Below, in pieces: positions 1 through 59,458 of a DNA stretch of 64,000 nucleotides. The position numbers and the translations under genes were made by a program. The notes under the pieces are model-generated. The model saw only the letters and a program-made list of their open reading frames with translations, searched no databases and was not told the DNA's origin. This DNA is from a virus (taxonomy: Duplodnaviria > Caudoviricetes): positions 1 through 64,000 of IMG/VR virus record IMGVR_UViG_2883187667_000001; one strand, given 5' to 3'. The number at the start of each line of letters is the position of its first letter. Positions within the stretch are counted from its first letter, which is position 1.

Positions 1-1059
1 TTAACCCACTTTTCTCAGGAGAACCATTTCAGTTCCTCCATCATCGTTTATCAGTCTATCGACGCATGACATAAGCCTGTCAATTGTCGCTTTACTGTAA
101 TGCTGGGTGACAGTTCCGTGTCTATGCCCAAGCAGATCAGCAATATCCTCCTGTGAAACGTCAGCGCTACGTAGTCTCCTGGCAAATGTATGGCGCAAAT
201 CATGTACGCGCACATCATCCAAGCTAACCTTTGCGCGTGCGCTTTTCCACGCGCGATTATTCATCCGTGAAATTCTATTACCTTCCAGGGTAAATACCCA
301 CTCGCTTGACCTACCGCGCTGCGTGTTTACCGATGAGGCCGCAGTTGCGTTTAGCGGCACCATCTTATCGTATCCGTTCTTTGTTACCGATCCGGGTATA
401 ACAAACACGATACGATCACTGCCGGATACTGTAAATTCCCACTCCCATCTCAACCCGCATATTTCCTGATCCCTGCATCCAGTGTGTACTGCGAATGTTG
501 CCATATTCGCAAGGTAAGCAGGCAGCTCCTTGAACAACCTTACCTGTTCGGCCTGCGTTATCGGGCGCGGCTTTCTTGGGTCTAGCTTCATAATCGGCAG
601 CGTGGGTATTTTCTCAAGCCAGTAGTGCCCGCTTGCATCCCTCCATGCGGTGGCAGCATCGGATAACACGGCGCGAAACGCGCCTATTTCCCTCTTTATG
701 GTTGATGGAGATACATCCCTTGACTTAATATAATCATCGAAAATTTCAGCTCTCACCGCAGATAATTGCATATTGCCAAAGCATTTGACGATATGGCTCA
801 GTGCAATTATCTGCCGCTCTATGCCCCTCGCATCTTTGTTTTCCTTTACATACCGCTCGCATGCCTCGTCTACCGTGTGAGGCTCGCGCTCGCCATACAG
901 AATTGTGCTCCTTACCCGTCGCGTGACTTCCTCAAGGAGCCGCTCCGCCTCTGCGAGATCACTGCTGTGGCAGCTTTCGAAAATCCTGACGCCGCAGATT
1001 GTTTTTTCAATATGCCAAATTCCACTCCTTTTTCTAAGGCCTGGTGTTGGTTTTGCCAT
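1..1059 (-). CDS. int: Tyrosine recombinase / phage integrase
   Basis: Catalytic motifs HTGCR, HDLRH, LLGH...HY. Confidence 0.95.
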   Translation of the reverse strand: MAKPTPGLRKRSGIWHIEKTICGVRIFESCHSSDLAEAERLLEEVTRRVRSTILYGEREPHTVDEACERYVKENKDARGIERQIIALSHIVKCFGNMQLSAVRAEIFDDYIKSRDVSPSTIKREIGAFRAVLSDAATAWRDASGHYWLEKIPTLPIMKLDPRKPRPITQAEQVRLFKELPAYLANMATFAVHTGCRDQEICGLRWEWEFTVSGSDRIVFVIPGSVTKNGYDKMVPLNATAASSVNTQRGRSSEWVFTLEGNRISRMNNRAWKSARAKVSLDDVRVHDLRHTFARRLRSADVSQEDIADLLGHRHGTVTQHYSKATIDRLMSCVDRLINDDGGTEMVLLRKVG

Positions 1060-4539: not shown

Positions 4540-4928
4540 AATGTAACTCTATCGATTTCGGCTATTACGGAATCAATAAATATGGCGGTATCTGCCATAA
4601 CGCAATCATTCTCTACTATGTCTGATTGTGTCTGTTTTAGCGCAGCAAGCAACCGATCGCGCTGTTTTTCAAGCTTTGCCGCATATGTACTCGCACCTGC
4701 CGCCGTCCATCCTCCATCAAGCGCATCTTGCGGTAATCCGGCGCATGCGTTGACGCAAGCTACAGCTCGGCGCATATTGAGAATTGACTGTTCATCGCTT
4801 TCACTTGTTGCATACAGCATGAAGTTAGCTATGAGCTTACAGCCTGGGCCGGTTATGTATCCTGGTTCAGTTTCAGCCACGTACCACGGCTCATTTTCAT
4901 GAGACGGCTCCCTTTCGTGAGCGGTCAT
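4536..4928 (-). CDS. Phage hypothetical protein
   Basis: NMRRAVACVNACAG motif of early phage proteins; coupled. Confidence 0.65.
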   Translation of the reverse strand: MTAHEREPSHENEPWYVAETEPGYITGPGCKLIANFMLYATSESDEQSILNMRRAVACVNACAGLPQDALDGGWTAAGASTYAAKLEKQRDRLLAALKQTQSDIVENDCVMADTAIFIDSVIAEIDRVTL

Positions 4929-6676
4929 GCGGCCTCCTGCATTTTTTGGTTTTCGATAACACCGCCCTCAATCCAGTACGATTGATTCACGCGACTCGGT
5001 AAATTCGGTGCGGATTTGAGAGTTCCCAGCACGATTGCCGTTTCAATTTCTCCCTGCAATGCCAACTCTTCCAGCCAGCAAAACAGGTCTTCACGACCCT
5101 TCAGGCTCAGCACGTCGAAACCGTCCAGCACGATGAATTTCAACCCGGACAAATGACTGATAGCCTCGGCGATCATTGCGTCAGCGCGCCACTTTGCGGA
5201 TACCGATAACAACCTGTAGTCGATGGGCTGCTCGCCTTCTTCGGCAGCGTAGATTTCCATATCCGGACCGATATTGATGCGCTTCCATTCGGCGATATTG
5301 GCCGAGTACGCAAGCCGCTCGTTAATCGGTTCGAGCGCCGCTTTCAGCATGTCGCCAGGTATGCCGTCGGGCGCCAGGGCGTCGGCGATCTTCGACCAGT
5401 CCGACACGCTGTTATGTGCGACCAGCGCTTTTTTTGTATTTACGTCCGCCTGTTCTGCAGCGGTTTTGGCTGATTTCAATGCGTCCAGCGCACGTCTTTT
5501 TTCCTGCTGTTCGGCCTGCAGTTTTTCTGCCGACTCACGGGCGGCGTCGATCTGCCCCGGCGCGGGCGCATCGCCGAGCGTTGAGTTGATCTCCTCCAGC
5601 TGCGCCTTCGCCTTCTTGGCTTCTTCAATGGCGCGCTTGCCGTTGTTTACGCAGGACTCCAGTAGTGCGTAGGATTTTTCGTGCGTCGCTATGCCGGACT
5701 CGGTAACCGGGTTTTCAACTTCCGGTAGTTCTGGATATGGTTCCAGCCTATCAACCTGAAAATACAGTGCTGCGCCGCACTCCGGGCAACCGTACATGGT
5801 TGGCGTGTGGCTTTTGATGCGTCCACGCATATCCTCGATTAAGGCGCGCTCGCGCTCCAGATCGGTTTGATCTATTCCGAGTTTGCGCTGCAGACGTTCA
5901 ATCATGCCGGCCTTCTGTTCCAGCTCGGCGCGGCGCTGTAGGCTGTCTTGATGCTGCTGCCATGACTGATTTAGCGCGCCCAGCGTTTGCTGAGCGATCG
6001 GCAGGCGTTCGCGATTAATAAAATCAATTTGCTTTTCCAGATCAACAATCGCTGCTTCGTCAAATTCAGGTTTTGACACCTGCCAACCATCCGCTTTTTT
6101 CTCGCCGTACACTTCGCCGGTTATCGCCTTCCATGCCGCTTTTTCATCTCGCGCACGTTGCGCCGCTTCCTTATTTGCGGCATCGAATCCAGAGCGTAGC
6201 ATCGGGAGTATGATTTCTGTTTTTGTTGCATCACAGCCTCTTTCCAGTAGCTTGGTTTTTACGAATTCCGGTTTGGCCGATACCCCCATTAAATCAAACA
6301 GGAGTGCGCGGCGACTGTTTGTATCGAGCCGAGCAAATCGGCTTGTAGCGAGCAAATAGGTCAGCCGCTCTGACGCATATTCGCCGACGCCAATCTTTAT
6401 TTGCCGCGGCGTTATCGACGCCGAAAACGTGCCAACATTCGTTTCTATGCAAATTTCAGCGCGCTTGTCGGTTGATCCATGGTTGATGAGCTCATGCGAT
6501 TCGCTCTTCTTGCTGACCCGGCACAGCTCGCCGGTCAGCGCCAATGCGATTGCGTCGCGGATACTGCTTTTGCCGGCTTCGTTGTTTCCAGCGATCACCG
6601 TTACCGGTACGCGTGCCGATATATTTACCGACCGCACGGCGAGAAAGTCGGTGATGCTGATACTTTGGATTTTCAT
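4925..6676 (-). CDS. SbcC/Rad50-like coiled-coil ABC ATPase
   Basis: Walker A GNNEAGKS, CPEC zinc hook in coiled coil, LS-S signature, VLDGFD Walker B. Confidence 0.85.
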   Translation of the reverse strand: MKIQSISITDFLAVRSVNISARVPVTVIAGNNEAGKSSIRDAIALALTGELCRVSKKSESHELINHGSTDKRAEICIETNVGTFSASITPRQIKIGVGEYASERLTYLLATSRFARLDTNSRRALLFDLMGVSAKPEFVKTKLLERGCDATKTEIILPMLRSGFDAANKEAAQRARDEKAAWKAITGEVYGEKKADGWQVSKPEFDEAAIVDLEKQIDFINRERLPIAQQTLGALNQSWQQHQDSLQRRAELEQKAGMIERLQRKLGIDQTDLERERALIEDMRGRIKSHTPTMYGCPECGAALYFQVDRLEPYPELPEVENPVTESGIATHEKSYALLESCVNNGKRAIEEAKKAKAQLEEINSTLGDAPAPGQIDAARESAEKLQAEQQEKRRALDALKSAKTAAEQADVNTKKALVAHNSVSDWSKIADALAPDGIPGDMLKAALEPINERLAYSANIAEWKRINIGPDMEIYAAEEGEQPIDYRLLSVSAKWRADAMIAEAISHLSGLKFIVLDGFDVLSLKGREDLFCWLEELALQGEIETAIVLGTLKSAPNLPSRVNQSYWIEGGVIENQKMQEAA

Positions 6677-7953
6677 TATTCAATGCTCCCGATGTTTCCG
6701 CGACGGCGCTGGCCGGCCTGCTGTTTCGGCGACTTCTTTGCCGCTATCGCCGCGTTGAGTTGCGCCCATTCGGATTCGGTGAATTGGCCCGGTTGTTCGG
6801 TTTGCGCGTTATTCAGTTCGCGCTCGGCCTCGGCAATATCCGCTTCTGCGCTGGATCCGTTGATGTAGTCGAGCCATGGCGTGAGTTTTTCTGACGGCGC
6901 GCGCTGCTCTGAGTCCAGTTTTTGCTGATGGCGCTCTTGGCGTGACGTGCTTTGCTGGCGAGTTTGTTGCACCGGATCAGGCTCCGGTTCTACATTTTTA
7001 GTGAAATTCTTTGGCAGTGTTTCGCCTTGCTTGTGTTCCAGGCTGGTTACTTCGCCGGTTTCCGTGTCGATGTTTTCGTCTTCGTAAATCGGCGCGTCAT
7101 CAGGAACCAGGTTGTAATCGCCGTCTATCGCATCGAGACCTTGATCCTTACCTGCGTCTGCCATGCTGTCCAGTGCAGCAGCGGTCTGGAACTCAATGGA
7201 AAGCGGCAGGTATTTTGACAGTCGGCGAATAACCGTCTTGCGCCCCATTTCTGTAAAATGATCCCACCAAGGCGAGTTGGCTTTTACTTTTTCACCCGTC
7301 TTTTTTCCGTTCTTCCATTCGTCCTTATATGCGCTTTGGCTGCTGTCGCGGATACTTTCAATTTGTTGGCGGCTCATGAATTCAAACGAGTGTCCGCCGT
7401 CCTTGAGTTTGGCAACGGCATAGAAACCAATGATTTCTCCCCGCTCACCGAGAGCCGGTTTATGCTCCAGCTTTTCATCCAATCCATAAACCATTTCAAA
7501 GTGGTCTTTCTCGCATACCTCGTGAGCGGCAATGCTGACAATCTGTCCAGAACGGCGCGCCAGATCGATCAGTCCCTTGTAACCGATAATGACCTGGACA
7601 GAATTCACCCAGCGCTCATTGCCCTGTGGATCCTTGCGCTTGGTATTGAACGGAACCAGATATGCATGACCCAGCACTGTATTGGGCTCCAGCCCCATCT
7701 GTGCGCACTGGTCGATAGCGCCGATCAGGCTGGGTACGTCGCACTTTGCAAGGGCTGGCGTCGTTGTGGCGGCAATCTGAGCTACTTTCAGAAGCCGCTC
7801 AATATTCAGGTGCTGCGGCAGCATCTTGGCTATTTCCGCCTTTTTGCTGTTCAGCAGGTAGGCTACCTGCTCCTTGGGCTTCATTTCGGAAACCGGACGA
7901 TGCTTTCCTTGGCCGGATTTCATATCGGATAAATTTTGTACTTGTGCATTCAT
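6676..7953 (-). CDS. recT: RecT single-strand annealing protein
   Basis: GLEPN..LGHAYLVPF, IIGYKGLIDLARRSG, EMGRKTVIRRL; start taken at MNAQVQ (RBS AGAGGA). Confidence 0.9.
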   Translation of the reverse strand: MNAQVQNLSDMKSGQGKHRPVSEMKPKEQVAYLLNSKKAEIAKMLPQHLNIERLLKVAQIAATTTPALAKCDVPSLIGAIDQCAQMGLEPNTVLGHAYLVPFNTKRKDPQGNERWVNSVQVIIGYKGLIDLARRSGQIVSIAAHEVCEKDHFEMVYGLDEKLEHKPALGERGEIIGFYAVAKLKDGGHSFEFMSRQQIESIRDSSQSAYKDEWKNGKKTGEKVKANSPWWDHFTEMGRKTVIRRLSKYLPLSIEFQTAAALDSMADAGKDQGLDAIDGDYNLVPDDAPIYEDENIDTETGEVTSLEHKQGETLPKNFTKNVEPEPDPVQQTRQQSTSRQERHQQKLDSEQRAPSEKLTPWLDYINGSSAEADIAEAERELNNAQTEQPGQFTESEWAQLNAAIAAKKSPKQQAGQRRRGNIGSIE

Positions 7954-7957
7954 GGTT

Positions 7958-8767
7958 TTATTCCTCTTTAAATGGGCAGCTTTTGTAGCGTGCGCAGTAT
8001 TTCTCACTACAAAGTAATGACTTGGGGTTCGGGTAAAACCTGCCCGTCCTGAACATGTCTGCGGCGAACTCAATCAATCCCGGTTGATCTTCGGTCCCGA
8101 CCATTACGCGCTTTGCGTTGTTGATTTCTCCGTAGCCTATTTCCGGCGTACCTTTCGTTTTCAGGCCGATGATTTCACCCGGAGCCGATATTTCTGTTCC
8201 CGTGCTGTGTTCGAACAGCAGTTCGTAGGTTCCGATCTGCGCGCCATGGCCCTTGGTGACTGCCGCCTTTTTCTGCACCGCGTTCGATCCGCTCTTCAGA
8301 TCGGTTATGCCGATAGCGCCGTCTTTGTGTTTATGCACGCGCGCCCGATCCAGTGTCCCGGTCAGCCTGACATGGATATCCGAGCCGCAATCGATTACCA
8401 GCGGCTTCGTTTCCATCTCAACCGACACGTAGTCGTAATTTGGCGCAACCTCGGCGCAGTATTTCGATAGCAGACTGATACCGATGCGCTCCGCGTCCTT
8501 TACTGACAGGTCATCTCGCGCTGGGTCGTATTCGTTTTCCGGGTCGCGCAACTTATCAACCAGCACGCCGGCTGCATCATCTATGGTTAGCGAGTCGCCG
8601 GAGATACGCGCCTGATCGAAAACAGCGGTCCCAGCATGGATAGCGGTTCCCAGCGCGGCGCGCAGGCCGATTGTATTTTTCATTCCAAGAAGATGAACGC
8701 CCTCCCACTTCATAGCGCAGTCAAACAGACCAGCCCATGAACTCGCTCTAACAGTTATCTCAGTCAT
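7958..8767 (-). CDS. PD-(D/E)XK RecB/Cas4-like exonuclease
   Basis: GTAIH, GTLD, DLKSG, QIGTY, C-terminal C..C....C cluster; adjacent to recT; start MTEITVRASS. Confidence 0.85.
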   Translation of the reverse strand: MTEITVRASSWAGLFDCAMKWEGVHLLGMKNTIGLRAALGTAIHAGTAVFDQARISGDSLTIDDAAGVLVDKLRDPENEYDPARDDLSVKDAERIGISLLSKYCAEVAPNYDYVSVEMETKPLVIDCGSDIHVRLTGTLDRARVHKHKDGAIGITDLKSGSNAVQKKAAVTKGHGAQIGTYELLFEHSTGTEISAPGEIIGLKTKGTPEIGYGEINNAKRVMVGTEDQPGLIEFAADMFRTGRFYPNPKSLLCSEKYCARYKSCPFKEE

Positions 8768-9015
8768 GCCGCCCTCCTCATCTCCAGCCGCTGCCGCCTT
8801 TCTTCCCGAGCCATTGCAATAATCTGCTGCTCCAGCTCGCGGAATGCACATTCGAGAATTATTTCCGTGACATCCTTGCCTTGATAGAAGACCTTGTCGA
8901 TAACGACGCTTTCCGGCGCTCCCGGCTCTGATTGCGTAGGTCCATATCCGCGCTCGTAATCGCAGTGCACCAGAACCACATCGTTGTTTAATTTGCATTC
9001 GACTATGTTTATCAT
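8764..9015 (-). CDS. Phage hypothetical protein
   Basis: Coupled ORF ending MRRAA. Confidence 0.6.
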   Translation of the reverse strand: MINIVECKLNNDVVLVHCDYERGYGPTQSEPGAPESVVIDKVFYQGKDVTEIILECAFRELEQQIIAMAREERRQRLEMRRAA

Positions 9016-9263
9016 TGGTCACCTACCCTGCTGAGTGCGGAAACGTCAGCGTTTGCCACCAACTCGGCATCTTCGCTATCAATCCGCCCTGAAATACCGA
9101 TTAACGCGAGGATCAGCATCAAAATTGCCAGCTCACGAAGTTTTTTTATTACGATGCCTGTTGTTAAACGTCGGCGCGCCCACCGTAGCGACATACATGA
9201 TCGATATTTGCAGTGCATGGCATACGCGATAAGCGCGTGTCTCTGATTAATGCTCTGGTTCAT
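9012..9263 (-). CDS. Phage hypothetical protein with one hydrophobic helix
   Basis: RBS AGGAG, coupled to next gene. Confidence 0.55.
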   Translation of the reverse strand: MNQSINQRHALIAYAMHCKYRSCMSLRWARRRLTTGIVIKKLRELAILMLILALIGISGRIDSEDAELVANADVSALSRVGDQ

Positions 9264-9491
9264 GATTACTCCTGCTGCGAATTAGTACCGGTATGCGATC
9301 CGGTAACGGACAACCTGGATTGACGGGATTCGTGTATCTAACGTCCCCAGCCGGTTGCCATGATTCCGATAACACTCGGTTTTCTTGTGTGCACTACCTA
9401 CCCTACGTAAACTTCATTTATCCAGCGTTTTACGGCGCTTTCGGATAAAGGAAGCGCCCTCGTGAGAAGGCGCTATACCTGGAGCTCTGGA

Positions 9492-9671
9492 TTAATCTGG
9501 ATCGTGCGTTTGCAGCGCTTCTTCGATTTCTTCTTCAGCGTTCGGATCTGCCGCAGCCAGTACCTGGGTCTCAGGATCGAAGTCGCCGACGATCAGCTCC
9601 CTGTCGCGCAAAGTATCAATTGCGTCCTGAAGAAACGGATCGATTTCAGATTTTTCATTTTCATTGGTCAT
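9492..9671 (-). CDS. Small highly acidic protein (candidate DNA mimic/anti-defence)
   Basis: 59 aa, 19 D/E vs 3 K/R; in pL leader downstream of the solitary CRISPR repeat. Confidence 0.6.
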   Translation of the reverse strand: MTNENEKSEIDPFLQDAIDTLRDRELIVGDFDPETQVLAAADPNAEEEIEEALQTHDPD

Positions 9672-9812
9672 TTGTATTTCCAAAAGTTGTGTTTAAAAAG
9701 TGCGTTCTCTCCCGCCGTCGCGAATCTTTCGGCCATCGTTGCGGCTGTAACGGTAATCAGCTACCGACTGCTTTGTTGATCCGGCTACCGTCGCTTTGAT
9801 TTCAGTGTTTCC

Positions 9813-9840
9813 TTTCTAAGCTGCCTATACGGCAGCGAAC
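9813..9840 (-). CRISPR. Solitary type I-F CRISPR repeat unit (candidate Racr)
   Basis: Minus strand reads GTTCGCTGCCGTATAGGCAGCTTAGAAA: 28 nt, CTGCC-GTATA-GGCAG Cas6f hairpin and 8-nt CTTAGAAA handle; no second repeat or cas operon seen. Confidence 0.9.
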
Positions 9841-10061
9841 GGCAACCGGATCAAGAAAGCATTGGGTGCGCGCTCTTACCCGGCGCGCTTAGGATGCGAT
9901 ACATACAGCCAACCGCTATTGCGCAAGCGGAGGTGTAACCAGGACTGACTCGCGTCTTTTTTCCGTGCGCGAGGACACGGTGTATCGCATTCGCTTTACC
10001 GACCATTCTGGTGACATCAACAAAATGGTCAGGAAAGCGCCTTGTAACCAAGGCAGCAGAA

Positions 10062-10313
10062 TTACGCTGTCGCATCGGTTTCTTTTGCCGGTTGCGGCAT
10101 TTGGTAGACGAGCCGGAGGAATCTGGCTTCATCCGCACGATCACAATCGTCACCGACCAAGGCGATCCAGAAGTTGTTTACGCCGGTTGCTATTGCGCGA
10201 TGGCAAGCCGCATCAGCACCGCTTTTGGATTTTTCTGCCAGATCAACGGCGATTTTGATCTGCCGCTCGGCCTCCTCGGTTATCTCTGTGTACGTCCAGG
10301 TTTTTTGTGTCAT
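10062..10313 (-). CDS. First gene of leftward (pL) operon, hypothetical
   Basis: MTQKTWTYTEITEEAERQ with RBS GAGGA. Confidence 0.6.
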   Translation of the reverse strand: MTQKTWTYTEITEEAERQIKIAVDLAEKSKSGADAACHRAIATGVNNFWIALVGDDCDRADEARFLRLVYQMPQPAKETDATA

Positions 10314-10510
10314 GTCGTCCTCGCGTGTTTTTTGGTGCCGGCATTCTTCCGTCCACCGCTTTGTTGAGCAGGCCCACTGTTTGCCCTGCGCTTTACGCGC
10401 TGTAACCTGCTCAAGAAAGCGCCCTTTTGCTATCAAGGGCGTTCGTTTGCTCCGCGCTTCGGTTCAAGGGCGCGTCAGGCCTTGGGCGAAATACGCCTTT
10501 TATCCTCCGA

Positions 10511-10540
10511 TGAGTCCGTGGGACTCGCTGTTAAAGAGCG
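10511..10540 (-). promoter_or_regulatory. nut-like antitermination site (boxA + hairpin)
   Basis: Minus strand CGCTCTTTAACA (boxA, 10529-10540) followed by hairpin GAGTCC-CAC-GGACTC, just downstream of pL. Confidence 0.75.
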
Positions 10541-10574
10541 CCGCCCGGTTGGGTGGGTGGCTGCGTCGGGTGAA

Positions 10575-10618
10575 ATATTACACTTACCGTGTAATTTATG
10601 TCAACACATTACGTGTAA
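10575..10618 (-). promoter_or_regulatory. pL promoter with two repressor operators
   Basis: TTGACA-18-TAATAT; operators TTACAC-N5-GTGTAA (10578-10594) and CAACAC-N5-GTGTAA (10602-10618). Confidence 0.85.
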
Positions 10619-10685
10619 ATATTTTTATAATCCCCTCGCGCCAACCGACAGGCACAAAAAAACCCGCTCGTAGCAGGTTGCGGGC

Positions 10686-10716
10686 AATAAAAAGCCCGCC
10701 GAAGCGGGCTGATTTT
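10686..10716 (-). terminator. Rho-independent terminator ending the cI-downstream cassette
   Basis: AGCCCGC-TTCG-GCGGGCT followed by TTTTT; second hairpin + T7 at ~10655-10678. Confidence 0.8.
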
Positions 10717-10736
10717 GTTATGGGCAACAGGTAGCG

Positions 10737-11717
10737 CTATAGTGACATTTCTTCCTGTTTTGCAGTTTCAATCCGCTTAAATGACGAAACGAGCATAAAT
10801 CTAGGTCTTCCTCGCCCATCCATTTCGTACTCACCCGTTACCTCTACTGTTGAACCAAGTAGCGGACGCACTGCTTCAGCGGTAACTTCCGGAAATACAC
10901 ACCGCAAAGTACCTACCCCAGAGATGTTGCGTAAATGGAATCTTGTCTTATCAAGGTCAACCTCACGAAATTCACCAGTAAACGTTCCATGTTTTTTGGA
11001 ATGAAGTTTGGGTTTTTTCAGGGCATCATGAATAACAACGCGCTCGCGTTGTGATAGTTCAGATGGTTTCTGTCCGGGTACAAAAAGCTCTACCGTATGT
11101 ATTCCCAACCGGCCTGTTGGCGATAAGCGGTATGCGGCCGTAAGTCCGGCATCCCGAGCGGCGGGATCGGGCATGGCCTCATAGATACCCGCATTCAAGC
11201 CTTCATCGTCCACAAAACCTGGAATTATAGATAGTTGCCTAATGGCTGATCGGACTGTTACAAAAACGGGCTCTTGATCGCCATCGAAAAACACATCACC
11301 ATCACCTGGCTGCAGCTTAACTCCCGCATAAATACTCCCCGGAGCAAAGCCTGTGAGCCTAATATCAAGATTCTTTGCTAGATGATTGGCGCTACTTTCT
11401 GTGAGATCAAAAATTGCCTTTGCAAGCAATCTTAGTTGCTTTTCTGCTCCACCAACCAGCCAGTTTATAGCATGTATGCTTGGCAGATAACCTTTAGTGT
11501 CCGGGCCTTCTGCATGAAAAACCAAATCTGAGTTTTCAAGCAGTCGCGCCAGTGGATATTCCTCAGCATAAAGCTGGTCAAGTAACTTGTAATAAGGATT
11601 TTCAGCCGCAAAAAACTCATCGTGGGTCATCTGCCCCTGCAGAAGACGCCATGCCTCCGCCATTTGCTCATGTATCATGGCTGCGCGATGATGGATCAAT
11701 GCGTAATTATTCACCAT
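10737..11717 (-). CDS. Unknown 326-aa protein, partner of nucleotidyltransferase
   Basis: Start overlaps stop of upstream gene; FAPGS motif, beta-rich OB-like C-terminus. Confidence 0.8.
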   Translation of the reverse strand: MVNNYALIHHRAAMIHEQMAEAWRLLQGQMTHDEFFAAENPYYKLLDQLYAEEYPLARLLENSDLVFHAEGPDTKGYLPSIHAINWLVGGAEKQLRLLAKAIFDLTESSANHLAKNLDIRLTGFAPGSIYAGVKLQPGDGDVFFDGDQEPVFVTVRSAIRQLSIIPGFVDDEGLNAGIYEAMPDPAARDAGLTAAYRLSPTGRLGIHTVELFVPGQKPSELSQRERVVIHDALKKPKLHSKKHGTFTGEFREVDLDKTRFHLRNISGVGTLRCVFPEVTAEAVRPLLGSTVEVTGEYEMDGRGRPRFMLVSSFKRIETAKQEEMSL

Positions 11718-12166
11718 GAATCTATCCTCAAAATACCTTTTTTATCCTTTGCTTCAAGGCCTTTCGTACACGCGGTTTTTTCACCAACATACTGAAAAAA
11801 TGACGCGAAGTCATTACCTCCTTGCAATACCGGATAAAAATCTACAAGCATATCAGTGCGAAGGCGAAGATGATTACGCTGACAATATAGCACCACCTTT
11901 CCGGCAATCAGATCATCAGCGCTACGCAGGTCTATTAATAGCTCTACATCGGATGGTATCGGCTTATCGGTAACATAGCTACCGTCTACAAACAATGGGG
12001 CGCGCGGAAAACTTTGGGCTCTGAATTCATTCAGCACATCGCCAAGTTTGCACCATAGGCTTGCGCGGTGATCATTCCAGCACAAGACTGATTCAGCCTC
12101 ATCAAGTGTGCACGAATGTACACCGACAGGTAGAAGCCCTTTCTCATTCATTTGAGGTATCGACAT
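11711..12166 (-). CDS. Pol-beta-fold nucleotidyltransferase (DUF6932-like)
   Basis: IP....GLLPVGVH N-terminus and VDGSYVTDKPIPSDVE (GS...DxE) motif. Confidence 0.7.
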   Translation of the reverse strand: MSIPQMNEKGLLPVGVHSCTLDEAESVLCWNDHRASLWCKLGDVLNEFRAQSFPRAPLFVDGSYVTDKPIPSDVELLIDLRSADDLIAGKVVLYCQRNHLRLRTDMLVDFYPVLQGGNDFASFFQYVGEKTACTKGLEAKDKKGILRIDSW

Positions 12167-12283: not shown

Positions 12284-12766
12284 TCAACCAATCTTCCGTT
12301 TGACCAGATCAGACGTGGTCGGCTTTTCGCCTCCATTTTTTATAGTCTGCAAACCGTCCATCGCCAACCCCTCCAAGGCTGTCATCACTGATTCAACTGG
12401 TGTTCCGCTGAGCAATTTTCGCTCACTCAACGGTGCTAGCAACAAATCAACTGCCGTCTGAGTTTCAGGGGGTGCGGCGCTATATTGATCCACTATCTGA
12501 TATGTGGTGGATGTCCTGTACATGTCTGGTACTGGAGCGCTGATCTCATTGCTCGACTGACTGCCAAACATCAGGAAGCATGGTGTTTTTCCTAGTTTGG
12601 TCGCCAGCAGCATGACAGTTTGCGCATCCGGCTCGCGCAGTCCTTGCTCAAAATTTGAAATCCTTGATACCGACAACTGCCCTCCCGTCAGATCAGACAG
12701 TTGTTGGAGTTTCAGCCCTGCAGCTTCTCTCGCGGCTTTGATGCGTAATCCAATTTCTTTTTTCAT
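12284..12766 (-). CDS. CI-like Xre-family repressor without S24 peptidase domain
   Basis: HTH (IKAAREAAGLKLQQLS...SRISNFEQGLREP), divergent from cro-like gene. Confidence 0.85.
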   Translation of the reverse strand: MKKEIGLRIKAAREAAGLKLQQLSDLTGGQLSVSRISNFEQGLREPDAQTVMLLATKLGKTPCFLMFGSQSSNEISAPVPDMYRTSTTYQIVDQYSAAPPETQTAVDLLLAPLSERKLLSGTPVESVMTALEGLAMDGLQTIKNGGEKPTTSDLVKRKIG

Positions 12767-12783: not shown

Positions 12784-12854
12784 ATACACAACTCGTGTAA
12801 ATCAACTATTCGTGGAATTCACGCTTGACTATTACACTTTTGGTGTAATAATCT
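12784..12854 (+). promoter_or_regulatory. oR operators and pR promoter
   Basis: ATACAC-N5-GTGTAA (12784-12800), TTACAC-N5-GTGTAA (12832-12848); TTGACT-18-TAATCT. Confidence 0.85.
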
Positions 12855-14151: not shown

Positions 14152-14610
14152 GTGAGAAGAATTGCTAAACAGACACACCGCGCCCTATTCCTCGCGTTGC
14201 AGGCCGACGCAAAGGAGTTCCCTGGCGGCATTCGCTCTATCGCCGAATCAATGGGGATGAACGGAACCAATCTGGCCAATGGCCTGAACCCTGATCACGA
14301 TGCCCTTCCCCCATCTTTCGGCGTGGTGCTCGAAGTCATCATGCTCGCGCAAGCAAAAAGAGCCGTTTTTTACCTGACCCAGATGGTTGGGCAAGTGCCG
14401 ATGGATTTCGAAGTGCTGGAGCCCCGGTCACCGGCTGAAGCGATCGCATTGTTTCTGTCGTTGGTTGAGAAAGTATCTGCTGTGCTGGGCCATGGGTCGC
14501 ATGCCGCAAAAGACGGGCATTTTGACGCCGAAGAGCGCAAAGCGCTTGAGCCTATGTTGTTTGCGCTGATGCAGGCCTGCGGCATTTTGTTGCAGGCGAT
14601 CAAGCGATAG
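14152..14610 (+). CDS. CII-family phage regulatory protein
   Basis: FPGGIRSIAESMGMN...LANGLNP and DGHFDAEERK motifs; position after cro. Confidence 0.75.
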   Translation: MRRIAKQTHRALFLALQADAKEFPGGIRSIAESMGMNGTNLANGLNPDHDALPPSFGVVLEVIMLAQAKRAVFYLTQMVGQVPMDFEVLEPRSPAEAIALFLSLVEKVSAVLGHGSHAAKDGHFDAEERKALEPMLFALMQACGILLQAIKR

Positions 14611-18844: not shown

Positions 18845-19021
18845 CTGGGTCAGTTCTCCGTTTATCTGACTCGCAGTCTACAACATTTGACAAGCGCCTG
18901 CTTCCGTGGTTTGCTATTGGCTATCGCCCCTCATGGGCGATACGGGTTTGGTCGCCCGGTAGTTGCAGGCGCAGAAGTTACGCGCCGACAGGTTCGTGGC
19001 TTTTTTTATGCCCTCACGATT

Positions 19022-19101
19022 ATGGTGGGTGGCGTATGGGGAGGCCGCGAGGCCTGCCGGTTCCTGTACCCGGTCGACCAACCCCCTACGTCATCCGCCG
19101 C
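19022..19101 (+). ncRNA. c4-type antisense RNA (P1/P4 immI-like)
   Basis: Cloverleaf-like fold with GGCC-GCGA-GGCC hairpin; loops TCCTGTA and CGACCAA complementary to TACAGGA (19140) and TTGGTCG (within GTTTGGTCG at 18946 and 19107). Confidence 0.85.
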
Positions 19102-19153
19102 CCTGAGTTTGGTCGCTTCGGTCGGCGGTTACTTAACCGTACAGGAGCCCACC

Positions 19154-20068
19154 ATGAATACCATTACCCAAGTCACGCCCGAAATCCGTCTGCACGATGG
19201 AAAAGCCGTCACTACGTCAATTGCTGTCGCTCAATATTTCACCAAGACGCACGACAACGTACTCAAAAAAATCCGTTCACTGATAACTCAGTTATCGCCC
19301 GACGACTGTGCCGTTACTTTTAACGAGACAGTAATCGACGTTGTCGTGCCAGCCAGCGGTGGAACCCGCAAAGACCCCGCCTACGAAATAACCAAACGCG
19401 GCTTCACCCTACTGGCAATGGGATTCACCGGCGAGAAAGCGCTGCAATTCAAACTGCGTTACATCGACGCCTTCGAGGCGATGGAAGCGCAATTGTCGCC
19501 AACCCAAATAAAAAAGCGCCTCCGCCGCTCCGTAGCCCAACACCCCGCACTGCCTCCATCGCGTCGTATACGCAGCCGAGACGATCTGAGCTTTACCAAG
19601 CGCGACACAGAGGGGAGATTAATCAACTGGATAGTGCAAAGTCCGGTCAACAGCTGGCACGAACACCACGGAATCGGAGAAATCTGGTTCAACGAAATCG
19701 TCGAACTAGCGCGCCATAGCCCAGAGGATGCCTATATCGCCATGAAGTGCGCAGGGCCCGCGCTGATGCGTTATTCCGGGTCAGGCCATGCCGACGGCTT
19801 CTTTGACCGCATGGCGCGCTGGGCGCTGTCCGCAATCCTGACGCAGGACGCGCCCGATCTACCGTTCCAGTGTCTGCAGATGGGCATGGCGCCCCTGGTG
19901 GGAATGGATAGCTTTCTGGAGAAAGCAGCACCTAATGAACTCGAATTTAAATCCATCGTCAGCCGCTTGCGTGACCCTGATTTACGGATTGATAACGAAC
20001 TCATTTCTGAAATTGGCAGAGCCTGTCTTGAGGTTCTCGTTAAACGTGCGCAAGGGGGAAACCATTAA
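19154..20068 (+). CDS. Rha-family antirepressor/regulator
   Basis: TTSIAVAQYFTKTHDNVLKKI, GFTLLAMGFTGEKALQFKLRYIDAFEAME; AGGAG RBS. Confidence 0.9.
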   Translation: MNTITQVTPEIRLHDGKAVTTSIAVAQYFTKTHDNVLKKIRSLITQLSPDDCAVTFNETVIDVVVPASGGTRKDPAYEITKRGFTLLAMGFTGEKALQFKLRYIDAFEAMEAQLSPTQIKKRLRRSVAQHPALPPSRRIRSRDDLSFTKRDTEGRLINWIVQSPVNSWHEHHGIGEIWFNEIVELARHSPEDAYIAMKCAGPALMRYSGSGHADGFFDRMARWALSAILTQDAPDLPFQCLQMGMAPLVGMDSFLEKAAPNELEFKSIVSRLRDPDLRIDNELISEIGRACLEVLVKRAQGGNH

Positions 20069-34000: not shown

Positions 34001-34859
34001 CGAAATTGGCGATACATTTGAAGTTGAAACTTCCACCGATGAAGAAGACATAACCAATACGCTGGATTCAGCTGTAGGTGGTGGGCATATGGTATTCAAC
34101 CTGTTTATTGAAGGTGAGCCGCCTGAAGTAGTTGATGAAAATGATTCTGGAGATAACCCCGGAGACGAAACCACCAAGCCAGCGCCAGAAATACCCGTTA
34201 TCGAGCTGACCAGCGAGAGCGGCGGAGAAAACGTGAATGCCGATGGAGGAAAAACGGGCTCCGTCGACGCCGCCTACCTATTCGCCAACGCAACCGATGA
34301 ATTCAAGGAATGGCTGTCCGAATACCTGAAAAAGCCGGATTATTCACCATTTGTTACCGCCAGGGAAATGGATCAAGCGGCCAAACGCAACGGAGCCAGT
34401 GTTGACTGGGGCGTGTTTTCCGGCACAGACCAGGATATCGACTCAGACGGCTATGTGGGCGAGGTCAAGAAGGGCGGAGAGATCGTTGGCCGCATCGACA
34501 TTGGCAATGATGGCAAGGCGATGGTGTTCGTTGGTGCGACCGGAGATCAGCGCGTTGTCTTCCCATCCGGCGTGGAGGCGGTCTATTCCGATGATGATGC
34601 CATCGAAATGGTTGACGTCCTGTTTTCTACCCAATCTGGAGATACGCAGCCCGCTATTGCTACTGACCCGCAGCTGGTAGCAGACTTAGCCCTGCTTCAC
34701 TCCGTCATAGATGGGACCGTAGCCGATATCCTTTCTCCCGAACTCGGCGAACAGATGGCCGCCACATTCGAGCGCAATCAGGACAACGCGGAGTTCATGG
34801 AATTGTTCAACCGGGCTGTGAATGCCTACACCGCCGCCATGATGGCGGCCACGGCATAA
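31062..34859 (+). CDS. darA: DarA-like polyvalent head protein (PBECR-like, pyrophosphatase-like, DarA N-terminal, LPD3-like domains)
   Basis: IGDIDLVWG...GIAKILRWH; GNYKVG...HYGY..GT.GADGDPVDVF...FDEHKVML; ELSDGQTVSVFLHNPD...WLLNKKDIT.VVAPE. Confidence 0.8.
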   Translation: MTTDTPIYTQFKHNAKAAIAHLIKEQKGIAVAALYHPEIGDIDLVWGKTTDDARSKGTGIAKILRWHPEVLRDLQGFISSLHVHQRHGKKIHLTGNAGERAAVQVDYDQRNGHWLLTAYIKGYAATHADTSAADMANGRPDSAIPPSGDEKTLDSLVSNVNTSFEKGRSSLGTRTDTTKFDAKDDTARLNPATGKTVDSANTPVNSADALLHIENAAHEGAFGNNPLPSPSDAQCTAGNYKVGRVEIAGFKIAIEQPRGTYRTGIDAKTGKRWATRLAGHYGYFSGTKGADGDPVDVFIGFYPYSEMAYVINQFINGRFDEHKVMLCYPDEYSARKAYLDSYERGWKGLQNMIPATLEQLRWWLKNGNTSRPLRPEFLPFAGLETMNQKIYWDGNAMPIDASLDKVLYDIRRSVDGALIFDAVSMTDIVEDADGLAAFDALVTPYASLERKMAVLQRVMDRYGQAVKVTAMQISDPFTQRGVANVAVIYELSDGQTVSVFLHNPDVTPRKIAPTDELISWKWLLNKKDITIVVAPEKGQDLDVKEVGKRIMRLVEKNSALFGKANAQRAERMQSIEDIKTEIVGLEAELKTKLHELEVAKVEAEDRAMKSTPSEGVVVTYREALPPTTNAVESPTPEAQEGTDHQDVSDIDVGYINEPVTEAPLSEARPQHDGQQTPDTAVAVLKDGYSKLSPEEIIVTKMNEAMLALIAAKDNGDARSISEAEQLMREAYGSEEATPMLKMSAAELRDLHNAVAGKPFEATVAASAFGGLRPALDLVGAEVPENKIVLAGNEIGDFPDTPEGKKELRVAARAVFESMLGKWVSCPALDGDVEIRKSGMNKTLSLSGDPRKLKLVAALEELIRIGKKLDTKPSYAPEIERSVIAYHYMRSLANLEGTDIAVRFIVKEDEKGKFHWDHSVHDTDATFDSTKENGPNFSDPLLVTTSCGGGTYPSRLASDQLDGTVEEGSADFNGDFIVDENEIGDTFEVETSTDEEDITNTLDSAVGGGHMVFNLFIEGEPPEVVDENDSGDNPGDETTKPAPEIPVIELTSESGGENVNADGGKTGSVDAAYLFANATDEFKEWLSEYLKKPDYSPFVTAREMDQAAKRNGASVDWGVFSGTDQDIDSDGYVGEVKKGGEIVGRIDIGNDGKAMVFVGATGDQRVVFPSGVEAVYSDDDAIEMVDVLFSTQSGDTQPAIATDPQLVADLALLHSVIDGTVADILSPELGEQMAATFERNQDNAEFMELFNRAVNAYTAAMMAATA

Positions 34860-34872
34860 GGGAGCGCTGGCG

Positions 34873-41355: not shown

Positions 41356-41357
41356 GC

Positions 41358-52071: not shown

Positions 52072-52857
52072 ATGATTTACATACCGCCACTCAGAACAAA
52101 ACGCCTCACGGTACAGCTCAAGGAGCTGTCCATTATGGATAGCATCGCGCTGGCCGGAATGCCTATCGCGCACGAGCAATCCAACATAACGCAGTTCCTG
52201 CGGCGCGCCACGGACAGCGCCAACGGCATCGATCCCGCCTTATGGACGGTTCAGGAGCGCCTATTGGCGGTTTGCCACTATATTGCCGCGGTAGCCGATG
52301 ACGGCCCTGATTTTTCAGTCGGCGCTGCGGCGCATTATTCCGATTACCTGGATGGCGAAGTCGATATCACCGGCGATGGAAAACCGCTGCCGGCCGGTGA
52401 GCTGTCCGGCGATAACTGGTCCATCCGGCATCTGACCGGCTGGTCCGCCGAGGTCATCGAACGCCTGGAAGGGGAAATACCGGGTCTTTCTGCAAGAGCG
52501 CATTGGCTGTTGGGCGCCATGGCCGCGCAACTGGTGCGCGACTCGGAGGAAATCAACGATGAGTTTACCGATGAATGGCTGCTGGAGCGCATGCGGATCA
52601 TGGCGGCGTTCCCGGAAAGTGACTTCATCGCGTTGAGCGCGATATTCATGGAGGGCAAGGCGACGCTGCATCACCTGATGCGCATCGAGTTCGGCGACGA
52701 CGGCGGCATCGTGGTACTGCCGAAGGAGGGCGGCCTGTTACCGCCCGCCCGATTTCGCCTATATTCCTGCCTCTCAACGTTCGCGCGCGGAATGGGCGGA
52801 AAACCTGACGAATCTGGCGATCAGCGTCAGTCTATTCTCTTCGACACCGCTGCATGA
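52072..52857 (+). CDS. Putative tail/baseplate assembly chaperone
   Basis: WTVQER..A..HY motif; followed by overlapping start-less +1 ORF. Confidence 0.6.
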   Translation: MIYIPPLRTKRLTVQLKELSIMDSIALAGMPIAHEQSNITQFLRRATDSANGIDPALWTVQERLLAVCHYIAAVADDGPDFSVGAAAHYSDYLDGEVDITGDGKPLPAGELSGDNWSIRHLTGWSAEVIERLEGEIPGLSARAHWLLGAMAAQLVRDSEEINDEFTDEWLLERMRIMAAFPESDFIALSAIFMEGKATLHHLMRIEFGDDGGIVVLPKEGGLLPPARFRLYSCLSTFARGMGGKPDESGDQRQSILFDTAA

Positions 52858-59448: not shown

Positions 59449-59458
59449 GGAAAAACAG

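What the first reader, a model, noticed from the sequence alone, without database searches (positions are those of the whole stretch)
9776..9854. Solitary type I-F CRISPR repeat in the early operon, enclosed in an outer stem: candidate RNA anti-CRISPR (Racr)
Seen: one 28-nt I-F repeat GTTCGCTGCCGTATAGGCAGCTTAGAAA (9813-9840, minus strand, same sense as pL) with no array or cas genes. Flanks pair: UUGAUCCGGUUGCCGUUCGC with GCGACGGUAGCCGGAUCAA, so the repeat 5' end and part of the pseudo-spacer are sequestered while the Cas6f hairpin stays free. Known: prophage solitary repeats processed by Cas6f can titrate Cas proteins (Racr). Inference: the outer stem may control maturation or define the 3' end, which may be a new feature.
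Basis: partly seen in the sequence, partly recalled or inferred. Interest (0 to 1): 0.82.

Follow-up and report, generated by a model that had tools for sequence, protein, structure and literature searches.

The report
Lone CRISPR repeat in prophage early operon
A prophage in a methane-oxidising bacterium carries one copy of its host's type I-F CRISPR repeat inside a long RNA hairpin in its early genes; this is most likely a known kind of RNA decoy against CRISPR immunity, in unusual packaging.

Summary
Window 9813-9840 (-) is one full type I-F repeat (Rfam CRISPR-DR4, 44.7 bits). It is truly solitary and sits at the tip of a ~170-nt RNA rod whose core is a 17+6 bp helix. That helix is far more stable than shuffled or random flanks give.

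The repeat lies about 730 nt downstream of a repressor-controlled early-left promoter. It falls in a ~390-nt gap between two orphan small-protein genes of a ~85-kb P1-like/lambdoid prophage.

The host is Methylococcaceae-like and has a I-F cas operon. Its 39-repeat array differs from the lone repeat by one loop base. Three of its 38 spacers match this prophage, two of them with a CC PAM. The host cas7f gene is broken by a frameshifting deletion.

The best reading is a Racr-type RNA anti-CRISPR co-transcribed with early genes. In that reading the helix excises, insulates or stabilises it, perhaps through RNase III. None of this is tested.

It is not a Cracr: there is no second repeat and no match to a cas promoter. 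No relatives were found anywhere, so conservation and covariation could not be assessed. None of 23 other viral I-F solitary repeats has such a helix.

This scan has reported solitary repeats before on other DNA (types I-C and III).

The parts
9813..9840 (-). Solitary type I-F CRISPR repeat unit (SRU), 28 nt. It matches the host array repeat at 27 of 28 positions; the difference is loop base 12, U here and C in the host.
9821..9835 (-). Cas6f-type hairpin CUGCC-GUAUA-GGCAG (C6 to G20). By analogy with RacrIF1 and crRNAs, cleavage is expected after G20, between window 9821 and 9820.
   Evidence: P>=0.9 for the 5 pairs; cleavage site inferred from PMC10651486, section read
9813..9820 (-). 5'-handle sequence CUUAGAAA, which would head the downstream cleavage product.
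   Evidence: identical to the host repeat's last 8 nt
9781..9812 (-). 32-nt 'pseudo-spacer'. Nucleotides 1-20 are predicted single-stranded and nucleotides 21-32 lie in the 3' arm of the helix. No target was found.
9838..9854 (-). 5' arm of the 17-bp enclosing helix. It includes repeat bases 1-3, and CC (9842-9841) lies directly 5' of the repeat.
9776..9792 (-). 3' arm of the 17-bp enclosing helix. Its three G-U wobbles (9845/9785, 9843/9787, 9838/9792) pair only in the minus-strand RNA.
9856..9861 (-). 5' strand of the 6-bp helix extension, separated from the 17-bp helix by a C-C mismatch. It pairs with 9769-9774.
9769..9774 (-). 3' strand of the 6-bp helix extension.
9742..9911 (-). The whole structured RNA domain (~170 nt). 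It comprises the outermost stem 9910-9904/9743-9749, the side hairpin 9888-9868, the rod, and a three-way junction with the CRISPR hairpin. The sense fold is -77 kcal/mol and the antisense fold -69.4 kcal/mol.
10575..10604 (-). Early-left (pL-like) promoter TTGACA-18-TAATAT, overlapped by operators at 10579-10593 and 10603-10617. It is the nearest predicted promoter upstream of the SRU.
10661..10710 (-). Two tandem terminator-like hairpins. They close the repressor/moron operon just upstream of the early promoter.
10062..10313 (-). First early-left ORF (P0001, 83 aa). It is an orphan and lies upstream of the SRU.
9492..9671 (-). Small, very acidic ORF (P0002, 59 aa). It is an orphan and lies downstream of the SRU.
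12284..12766 (-). HTH repressor gene (CI/DicA-like). The divergent operators lie at 12785-12799 and 12833-12847.
52618..52649 (-). Protospacer of host spacer 33. It matches 30 of 32 with mismatches at positions 27 and 30, has a CC PAM, and lies in a head-morphogenesis-like gene.
19388..19419 (-). Protospacer of host spacer 16. It matches 29 of 32 with mismatches at positions 3, 9 and 30, has a CC PAM, and lies in the Ant/Rha-like gene.

Best explanation
This is a solitary-repeat RNA anti-CRISPR (a Racr-type decoy) against type I-F systems. It is carried in the early-left operon of a temperate P1-like/lambdoid prophage.

Shown by the sequence:
- One complete I-F repeat lies in sense orientation about 730 nt downstream of a repressor-controlled early promoter.
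- It sits in a ~390-nt non-coding gap between two small orphan genes.
- It forms the tip of a ~170-nt RNA rod.
- The host has the cognate system with an intact Cas6f, and its array holds spacers against this very prophage.

Inferred mechanism: on infection or induction the early transcript carries the repeat. Host Cas6f binds the free CUGCC-GUAUA-GGCAG hairpin, cuts after G20 and stays bound. Cas6f, and probably other Csy subunits, are thereby drawn away from real crRNAs.

Inferred with less confidence: the enclosing 17+6 bp helix is a processing and insulation module. It makes the hairpin fold correctly inside a long mRNA and lets RNase III cut the unit out of the polycistronic transcript and/or protect its ends. 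The DicF sRNA is cut out of a prophage early operon in the same way.

The helix holds the RNA just 5' of the hairpin in a duplex. After Cas6f cleavage it would also keep the handle-bearing 3' piece attached. The complex trapped here should therefore differ from the Cas6f plus Cas7f filament formed on RacrIF1.
For: Repeat identity and orientation:
- CRISPR-DR4 at 44.7 bits, full length.
- 27 of 28 bases match the host repeat. All 39 host repeats lie within 2 mismatches of the lone repeat.

Solitary:
- The best 28-mer identity within +/-150 nt is 14 of 28.
- The genome holds no other repeat-like unit outside the array, apart from one 7-mismatch chance hit.

Mobile-element and early-operon context:
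- Integrase, exonuclease, RecT-like and SbcC-like genes and an HTH repressor are present.
- P1-like Dar, Ulx, Hdf and Pmg genes and a C4 RNA are present.
- The promoter carries two of the window's four operators.
- The two flanking ORFs score as coding, while the ORF that would overlap the gap does not.

Cognate host system:
- cas1, cas2-3, csy1, csy2 and cas6f are open.
- Cas6f aligns end to end with P. aeruginosa Csy4.

Arms race:
- 3 of 38 spacers match the prophage: 30/32 with a CC PAM, 29/32 with a CC PAM, and 32/32 with a TA PAM.

Helix:
- Fold z-score -7.5.
- Duplex -49.9 against -25.6 +/- 4.5 for shuffles, and 9 of 3000 random sites as good.
- Pair probabilities are given.
- All three non-Watson-Crick pairs are G-U in the transcribed sense, and the sense fold is 7.6 kcal/mol more stable than the antisense fold.

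Literature (named sections read):
- RacrIF1 is bound and cut by Cas6f and inhibits I-F. Nine of nine tested candidates inhibited. RacrIC1 is co-transcribed with acrIC5 (PMC10651486).
- The host encodes RNase III.
Against: - The host's cas7f carries a ~26-codon deletion with a frameshift. In this strain the I-F effector cannot assemble, and that lesion alone explains why the self-targeting spacers are tolerated.
- No promoter-like site lies within 250 nt upstream, which was the selection criterion for the tested Racrs. The nearest is about 730 nt away, with a weak terminator-like hairpin at 10441-10420 in between.
- In RacrIF1 the inhibitory part is the single-stranded RNA upstream of the hairpin, on which Cas7f polymerises. 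Here that RNA is base-paired.
- No relative of the element or of its two neighbouring genes was found in any collection. There is therefore no conservation and no covariation.
- 0 of 23 non-redundant solitary I-F units from IMG/VR has a comparable enclosing helix; their duplex energies run from -7.5 to -29.7 kcal/mol.
- No known Acr or Aca family was found in 37 prophage ORFs.
- The rod still folds at -62.9 kcal/mol when the repeat is removed in silico. The hairpin may therefore predate the repeat and have nothing to do with it.
Confidence: 0.58

Rival explanations
1. It is a neutral scar. A single repeat was captured from a I-F array, or inserted between a PAM and a protospacer as an escape event, into the loop side of a pre-existing RNA hairpin of the early operon. 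It has no present function.
For: - CC, the I-F PAM, lies directly 5' of the repeat, so without the repeat the downstream 32 nt would be a CC-flanked protospacer. CC has a dinucleotide frequency of 0.064 on this strand.
- The rod folds without the repeat at -62.9 kcal/mol, with a 15-bp apical helix.
- The host effector is dead, so nothing selects for a decoy now.
- No relatives show conservation.
Against: - All 28 bases are intact, including every Cas6f determinant, and the orientation is the transcribed one.
- Three helix pairs use bases of the repeat itself.
- Neither flank matches any host spacer.
- No 'empty site' and no array spacer equal to the pseudo-spacer was found in 400 other genomes of the order, in IMG/VR or in metagenomes.
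- Every tested SRU of this kind was inhibitory (PMC10651486 abstract and section 11 heading).
Confidence: 0.2
2. It is a two-piece guide RNA. After Cas6f cleavage the helix tethers the Cas6f-bound hairpin to the strand that starts with the 5' handle. This gives a circularly permuted crRNA mimic with an 18-20 nt free guide. It would either target relatives that lack the insert, where CC precedes the same sequence (a one-repeat competition or homing element), or repress a host gene in the manner of a Cracr.
For: - The geometry is handle, then 20 single-stranded nt, then a 17-bp duplex, then the hairpin.
- CC lies directly 5' of the repeat.
- Cracr RNAs work with short guides; mature sizes of 46 and 49 nt are reported (bioRxiv 10.1101/2024.10.29.618823, section read).
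That is a lead only.
Against: - No target was found. There is no CC-PAM seed of 9 or more in the cas locus.
- Only chance-level hits appear in phages and plasmids, at E>=3.
- Nothing was found in IMG/VR, in metagenomes or in 400 other genomes of the order.
- Genome-wide there are 11 CC-PAM sites with a seed of 10 or more, against 2.7 in shuffles, and 2.5% of shuffles reach 11. Most lie in a repeated element that is not visibly a promoter.
- Guide bases 21-32 are buried in the helix.
Confidence: 0.08
3. It is a Cas6f-dependent mRNA processing site used by the phage for its own gene control. It would uncouple or stabilise the upstream and downstream cistrons only in hosts that express I-F Cas6f.
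For: - The unit lies inside an operon between two coding genes.
- Cleavage would leave a Cas6f-capped 3' end upstream and a 5'-OH end downstream (cleavage chemistry from PMC10651486).
Against: - The benefit to the phage is not obvious.
- No RBS or start codon is sequestered by the structure. The next start is at 9671, about 70 nt beyond the rod.
- No precedent was found in the two literature searches.
Confidence: 0.07
4. It is a Cracr (a viral crRNA-like regulatory RNA) that reprograms Csy to silence cas genes or a CreT-type toxin promoter.
For: The host cas operon has a 1.35-kb insert with toxin-antitoxin-like genes between cas2-3 and csy1, the kind of place where CRISPR-safeguarding toxins sit.
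Against: - There is no second repeat-like unit to mature a 3' end.
- There is no CC-PAM seed match of 9 or more anywhere in 4650000-4667000.
- There is no AcrIF24-sized HTH gene beside it.
- The preprint's Tables S2 and S3 could not be opened, so its lists could not be checked.
Confidence: 0.03

Closest known systems
RacrIF1, the type I-F RNA anti-CRISPR of a Thiocystis violascens prophage (Camara-Wilpert et al. 2023, PMC10651486)
   Same: It is a single I-F repeat in an intergenic region of a prophage. The Cas6f hairpin and handle are intact, the host has a cognate I-F system, and there is no spacer target.
   Different: RacrIF1 has its own strong promoter and is a small RNA. Its active part is 70-76 nt of RNA 5' of the hairpin, which carries a Cas7f filament. 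Here the unit is about 730 nt into an early operon with no nearby promoter. The RNA 5' of the hairpin is locked in a 17+6 bp helix with the 3' flank. The exact 28-mer and its 22-nt core are absent from the paper's seven readable supplementary files; two PDF supplements could not be read.
RacrIC1 with acrIC5 (Bifidobacterium pseudocatenulatum prophage; same paper)
   Same: The solitary repeat is co-transcribed with a protein gene as one RNA.
   Different: RacrIC1 is type I-C, lies 11 nt after a known acr gene, and no enclosing helix is described for it. Here the neighbours are orphans with no Acr family match.
Cracr / viral crlRNAs (Liu et al., bioRxiv 10.1101/2024.10.29.618823)
   Same: It is a phage RNA built from I-F repeat sequence that engages Csy proteins.
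   Different: Cracrs have two repeat-like units around a short spacer that matches a cas or creT promoter, and they often sit beside acrIF24. None of these features is present here.
DicF sRNA in the dicBF operon of the Qin cryptic prophage of E. coli K-12
   Same: [quoted passage not shown]
   Different: The sequence and function are unrelated: DicF is an Hfq-type antisense regulator. It is cited only as a precedent for the processing route.

Membership tests
Racr (solitary-repeat RNA anti-CRISPR) | Sequence and hairpin of a known CRISPR repeat subtype | tested here: met
   CRISPR-DR4 at 44.7 bits against a gathering score of 35. 27 of 28 bases match the host I-F repeat. Hairpin pairs have P>=0.9.
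Racr (solitary-repeat RNA anti-CRISPR) | Solitary: no full or partial repeat (>70% identity) within 100 bp | tested here: met
   The best identity in +/-150 nt is 14 of 28, or 50%. There is no other unit with 7 or fewer mismatches outside the array, except one chance hit 2.3 Mb away.
Racr (solitary-repeat RNA anti-CRISPR) | Intergenic, on a virus or plasmid, not next to cas genes | tested here: met
   Prophage genes lie on both sides. The coding score of the only overlapping ORF is -0.04, against 0.21 and 0.44 for the neighbours. The cas genes are 2.3 Mb away.
Racr (solitary-repeat RNA anti-CRISPR) | Host carries a CRISPR-Cas system of the same subtype | tested here: met
   A I-F operon and a 39-repeat array are present. 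However, cas7f is a pseudogene.
Racr (solitary-repeat RNA anti-CRISPR) | Expressed: promoter within 250 bp (the paper's selection rule) or co-transcription with neighbours | tested here: inconclusive
   The consensus scan finds no site within 250 nt. The nearest promoter is at 10604-10575, about 730 nt upstream on the same strand. No transcript data are available.
Racr (solitary-repeat RNA anti-CRISPR) | Bound and cleaved by the cognate Cas6 and inhibits interference | not testable with these tools
   The only indirect evidence is that host Cas6f aligns full length with Csy4.
Cracr (viral crRNA-like regulatory RNA) | Two repeat-like units flanking a short spacer | tested here: not met
Cracr (viral crRNA-like regulatory RNA) | [quoted passage not shown] | tested here: not met
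   No CC-PAM seed of 9 or more occurs in G000 4650000-4667000.
Virus-borne mini-CRISPR array | Two or more repeats with a spacer that matches another mobile element | tested here: not met
   There is one repeat only. The pseudo-spacer has no significant match.

The most novel reading that the evidence does not exclude
The enclosing helix turns a single repeat into a circularly permuted, two-piece crRNA. Cas6f cuts after the hairpin, and the helix then holds the Cas6f-bound hairpin next to the strand that begins with the 5' handle and carries about 20 free guide bases.

The particle would recruit Cas6f together with Cas5f/Cas8f and about three Cas7f. That makes a dead-end mini-Cascade, or a short-guide effector aimed at relatives that lack the insert, where CC directly precedes the same sequence.

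This would be a way to make a complete Cascade-binding RNA from one repeat, and a Racr mechanism different from the Cas7f filament of RacrIF1.
Probability: 0.1. Interest if true: 0.8.

Novelty: new variant of a known kind. Interest (0 to 1): 0.45.

Why it matters
Solitary repeats as RNA anti-CRISPRs were described in 2023, and more than 2,000 candidates are listed, so another one is not a surprise in itself.

What sets this one apart is its packaging. It is embedded in a repressor-controlled early operon, and it is enclosed by a long helix. That helix sequesters exactly the RNA that forms the inhibitory Cas7f platform in the only I-F Racr studied biochemically.

If the helix matters, two things follow. 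Racrs can be made by processing of phage mRNAs, and they can trap different Cas sub-complexes. Both bear on how such RNAs could be designed as CRISPR off-switches.

The locus is also a compact natural case of a host-phage conflict. It holds three spacers against the resident prophage, a decoy in the prophage, and a host effector gene destroyed by a deletion.

Tried and rejected
**Searches for relatives all came back empty**
- blastn of 1.1 kb and of 91 nt against 50,697 phage records gave no match or chance hits only.
- A 231-nt query against 63 other genomes of the family hit only CRISPR arrays.
- Exact 32-33-mers spanning the repeat and its flanks gave 0 hits in genome contigs, viral contigs and metagenome contigs.
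- The exact 28-mer in genome contigs gave 1 hit, a variant repeat inside a Comamonas array and not an SRU.
- P0001, P0002 and the 326-aa upstream gene have no relatives.

**Pseudo-spacer targets: none found**
- Own genome: only self at 16 or more of 32, and no cas-locus seed.
- Phages and plasmids: chance-level hits only.
- IMG/VR with the 32-mer and metagenomes with a 26-mer: 0 hits.
- 400 other genomes of the order at 3 or fewer mismatches: 0 of 400.

**Is an enclosing helix general among I-F solitary repeats?**
- The first scan gave 34 loci, 14 of them with a single match, about 6 truly solitary, and none comparable.
Seventy had one match with enough flank. I dropped 42 that had a nearby repeat-like unit (more than 17 of 28 identical) and 5 duplicates, which left 23.
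- All 23 have duplex energies between -7.5 and -29.7 kcal/mol.

**Flanking ORFs as anti-CRISPR proteins**
- Pfam on 20 ORFs and NCBIfam on 37 gave no Acr or Aca family.
- The AlphaFold model of P0001 has pLDDT 55.6, too poor for a fold search, so none was run.
- The ESM Atlas nearest cluster is auto-named 'YdfA protein', at score 0.88 and TM 0.67. That is below the tool's own bar and is a lead only. P0002 gave no usable hit.

**Other checks**
- Rfam at relaxed threshold over 9300-10800 gave nothing beyond the repeat.
- RacrIF1's own sequence could not be obtained from the readable supplements, so its flanks were not folded.
- Two literature searches found no description of a helix-enclosed or RNase III-processed Racr: 'RNA anti-CRISPR/Racr/solitary repeat' and 'solitary repeat unit/anti-CRISPR/RNase III/type I-F'.
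Full report
**1. Observation**

On the minus strand, window 9840 to 9813 reads GTTCGCTGCCGTATAGGCAGCTTAGAAA. It is the only match in the window at up to 3 mismatches, and none is expected in 100 shuffles. Rfam assigns it to CRISPR-DR4 over the full 28-position model, at 44.7 bits against a gathering score of 35. It is the only significant RNA-family hit between 9300 and 10800.

A 111-nt fold gives -52.6 kcal/mol, z -7.5, and 0 of 200 shuffles fold as well. Base-pair probabilities give these elements:
- a 17-bp helix, 9854-9838 with 9776-9792, with 16 of 17 pairs at P>=0.86;
- a 6-bp extension across a C-C mismatch, 9861-9856 with 9769-9774;
- a free Cas6f-type hairpin, 9835-9831 with 9825-9821, at P>=0.9;
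- an outermost stem, 9910-9904 with 9743-9749, at P>0.98;
- a side hairpin, 9888-9868.

The unit is therefore the tip of a ~170-nt rod. The handle and the first 20 nt of the 'pseudo-spacer' form a single-stranded loop at a three-way junction.

As a control for chance I computed the duplex energy between the 5' and 3' flanks. It is -49.9 kcal/mol. One thousand shuffled flanks give -25.6 +/- 4.5 with a minimum of -45.4, and 9 of 3000 random genomic sites of the same geometry do as well. The three non-Watson-Crick pairs are all G-U in the minus-strand RNA. The sense fold (-77.0) is 7.6 kcal/mol more stable than the antisense fold (-69.4).

**2. Context in the window**

The window is part of a large integrated prophage.
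- The left end carries an integrase at 1-1059 (-), SbcC-like, RecT-like and exonuclease genes at 4925-9022 (-), an HTH repressor at 12284-12766 (-) and a CII-like gene at 14152-14610 (+).
- Further right lie terminase, P1-type DarB-, Ulx-, Hdf- and Pmg-like genes, sheath, tube and portal genes, and a C4 antisense RNA at 19018-19105.

Downstream of the repressor sit a DUF6932 gene and a 326-aa orphan, in the position where lambda carries rexAB. Two terminator-like hairpins follow at 10710-10661, and then a TTGACA-18-TAATAT promoter at 10604-10575 (-).

The palindrome TACAC-N5-GTGTA occurs four times in 64 kb, and 1 of 100 shuffles reaches four. Two copies lie on this promoter and two in the divergent region at 12785-12847. 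I therefore read 10604-10575 as the repressor-controlled early-left promoter.

The first ORF after it is P0001 (10313-10062, 83 aa). A ~390-nt gap holding the repeat follows, and then P0002 (9671-9492, 59 aa, very acidic). Both ORFs score as coding, at 0.21 and 0.44. The ORF that would run into the helix (9854-10153) scores -0.04. No promoter-like site lies between 10575 and the repeat.

**3. The host**

The genome is a single 4.70-Mb contig. Its Era protein is up to 77% identical to those of uncultured Methylococcaceae.

It carries one I-F locus at 4651175-4662886, in this order: cas1, cas2-3, a 1.35-kb insert, csy1, csy2, csy3, cas6f, and an array of 39 repeats and 38 spacers. The array repeat differs from the prophage unit only at loop base 12.

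Cas6f is open and aligns end to end with P. aeruginosa Csy4. From memory of the Csy4 literature, the catalytic His and Ser and the arginine-rich helix are conserved in that alignment.

csy3 (cas7f) is broken. An intact relative's residues 1-79 and 106-349 align in two different frames that overlap by 5 nt, and residues 80-105 have no counterpart. That is a deletion with a frameshift.

Three of the 38 spacers match the prophage:
- Spacer 33 matches 30 of 32, with mismatches at positions 27 and 30 and a CC PAM, at window 52618-52649.
- Spacer 16 matches 29 of 32, with mismatches at positions 3, 9 and 30 and a CC PAM, at window 19388-19419.
- Spacer 21 matches 32 of 32 with a TA PAM. Its target lies 19 kb beyond the window in an ORF of phage families, probably in the same prophage.

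No other spacer has a match of 24 or more of 32 in the genome.

By established knowledge of I-F seed rules (recalled), spacer 33 would be expected to interfere. The lysogen therefore needs either a dead effector, which it has, or an inhibitor.

**4. What it is**

The published definition of a Racr candidate is a repeat-like unit on a virus or plasmid that is intergenic and has no full or partial second repeat nearby. In most cases the host carries the same subtype (PMC10651486; sections read).

All of these features are met:
- The best 28-mer identity in +/-150 nt is 14 of 28.
- The genome has no further unit outside the array at 7 or fewer mismatches, except one 7-mismatch chance hit.

The alternative known kind is the Cracr. 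It needs two repeat-like units and a spacer matching a cas or creT promoter (preprint sections read). Neither is present, and no CC-PAM seed of 9 or more occurs in 4650000-4667000.

The pseudo-spacer has no significant match anywhere I could search. Genome-wide there are 11 CC-PAM sites with a seed of 10 or more, against 2.7 in shuffles, and 2.5% of shuffles reach 11. That excess comes mainly from a three-copy conserved element of unknown nature. I do not read it as targeting.

**5. How it most likely works**

Shown: the sequence, the structure prediction, the operon position, the cognate host system and the spacers. Everything else below is inferred.

The early transcript made at infection or induction contains the unit. 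Cas6f binds the hairpin and cuts after G20, as for RacrIF1. Cas6f is thereby titrated.

This element has to differ from RacrIF1 in one respect. In RacrIF1 the inhibitory product is 70-76 nt of single-stranded RNA 5' of the hairpin, which carries eight or nine Cas7f and lacks a handle. Here the 5' RNA is in a duplex with the 3' flank. After cleavage the handle-bearing piece would stay attached through 23 base pairs.

The most economical role for the helix is processing and insulation. A two-turn intramolecular stem is the classic RNase III substrate (PMC6212723, abstract and passages). The host encodes RNase III. A prophage early operon that releases an embedded RNA through RNase III and RNase E is known: DicF in the Qin dicBF operon.

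I put about 0.58 on the decoy function. Within that, I put roughly even odds on the helix being relevant to it, and about 0.25 on RNase III specifically.

**6. Evidence against, and limits**

- The host effector is already dead, so the element has no present target here. The lesion alone explains tolerance of the self-targeting spacers. If the unit depends on the repressed early promoter it would not protect a lysogen, which would fit the need for the cas7f lesion. That link is speculation.
- Nothing related to the unit, its flanks or its two neighbouring genes exists in the phage records, the 63 other family genomes, the representative genomes, IMG/VR, the metagenome contigs or the 5.8-billion-protein set. 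Conservation and covariation are therefore untestable.
- The enclosing helix is not a general property of I-F solitary repeats. I dropped 42 for a nearby repeat-like unit and 5 as duplicates. The remaining 23 have flank duplexes of -7.5 to -29.7 kcal/mol.
- The rod still folds at -62.9 kcal/mol without the repeat. The hairpin may be older than the insert.
- CC lies directly 5' of the repeat, with a chance of about 0.064. Without the repeat, the downstream 32 nt would therefore be a PAM-flanked protospacer. This keeps two other readings alive: an escape scar, and a guide against relatives that lack the insert.
- No known Acr or Aca family is near the unit. The model of P0001 was too poor to search.

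**7. Comparison and novelty**

This is a new, unlisted example of a solitary-repeat Racr candidate. Its 28-mer and its 22-nt core are absent from the seven readable supplementary files of PMC10651486. Two PDF supplements and the preprint's tables could not be read.

Its architecture has not been described for the characterised Racrs. It is operon-embedded without its own promoter and is enclosed by a 23-bp helix that sequesters the 5' platform. Two literature searches found no such description.

I rate it a new variant of a known kind, of moderate interest. The variant status rests on predicted structure in a single sequence.

Noticed in passing
outside the window: G000:C1:4654196-4655153 (-): The host csy3/cas7f gene is a pseudogene. 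About 26 codons (a relative's residues 80-105) are deleted and the frame shifts, while cas1, cas2-3, csy1, csy2 and cas6f stay open. Together with the three spacers against the resident prophage, this looks like autoimmunity resolved by loss of the effector.
   Followed up: yes
outside the window: G000:C1:4657311-4658658 (L292:300-1670): A 1.35-kb insert lies between cas2-3 and csy1. It holds a TacA-like antitoxin ORF on the opposite strand (Pfam PF08681, E 2.5e-12) and weak HicA/HicB-like fragments. These are toxin-antitoxin genes inside a cas operon.
   Followed up: partly
window 19018-19105 (+) and 31062-41771, 59282-59959: The prophage has a P1-type C4 antisense RNA (Rfam RF01695, 58.9 bits) with an Ant/Rha-like gene, plus DarB-, Ulx- and Hdf-like anti-restriction genes. 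These sit in an integrated prophage whose left arm is lambdoid (int, exo, RecT, repressor with operators). It is a P1/lambda hybrid rich in counter-defence genes.
   Followed up: partly
window 9802-9812 (-) and 15 other genome sites: The first 11 nt of the pseudo-spacer (GGAAACACTGA) occur 16 times in the genome, against 2.2 expected. About 11 of these are the outer end of a multi-copy inverted-repeat element (GGAAACACTGATTTAATCG...). One inverted pair lies at G000 4666155/4666252, 3.3 kb from cas1. None has a CC PAM. The meaning is unknown.
   Followed up: partly
outside the window: G000:C1:295743, 313137, 3612126: A three-copy conserved element of more than 190 nt contains CC followed by 8-11 nt identical to the start of the pseudo-spacer. 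Its nature was not determined.
   Followed up: no
window 10737-12166 (-): A DUF6932 gene (PF22014, E 2e-23) and a 326-aa orphan lie directly downstream of the repressor and upstream of two terminators. This is the position where lambda carries rexAB, so they may be a prophage-encoded defence or exclusion pair.
   Followed up: no
L073:233-260 (IMG/VR contig): A solitary I-F repeat in a viral contig is flanked on both sides by the same ~24-nt sequence in direct orientation (identical 'spacers' before and after one repeat).
   Followed up: no
outside the window: G000:C1:2392291-2392322 (L085:2292-2323): Host spacer 21 matches a phage-family ORF perfectly (32 of 32), but the PAM is TA instead of CC. 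This is the pattern of a PAM escape or a slipped acquisition.
   Followed up: partly
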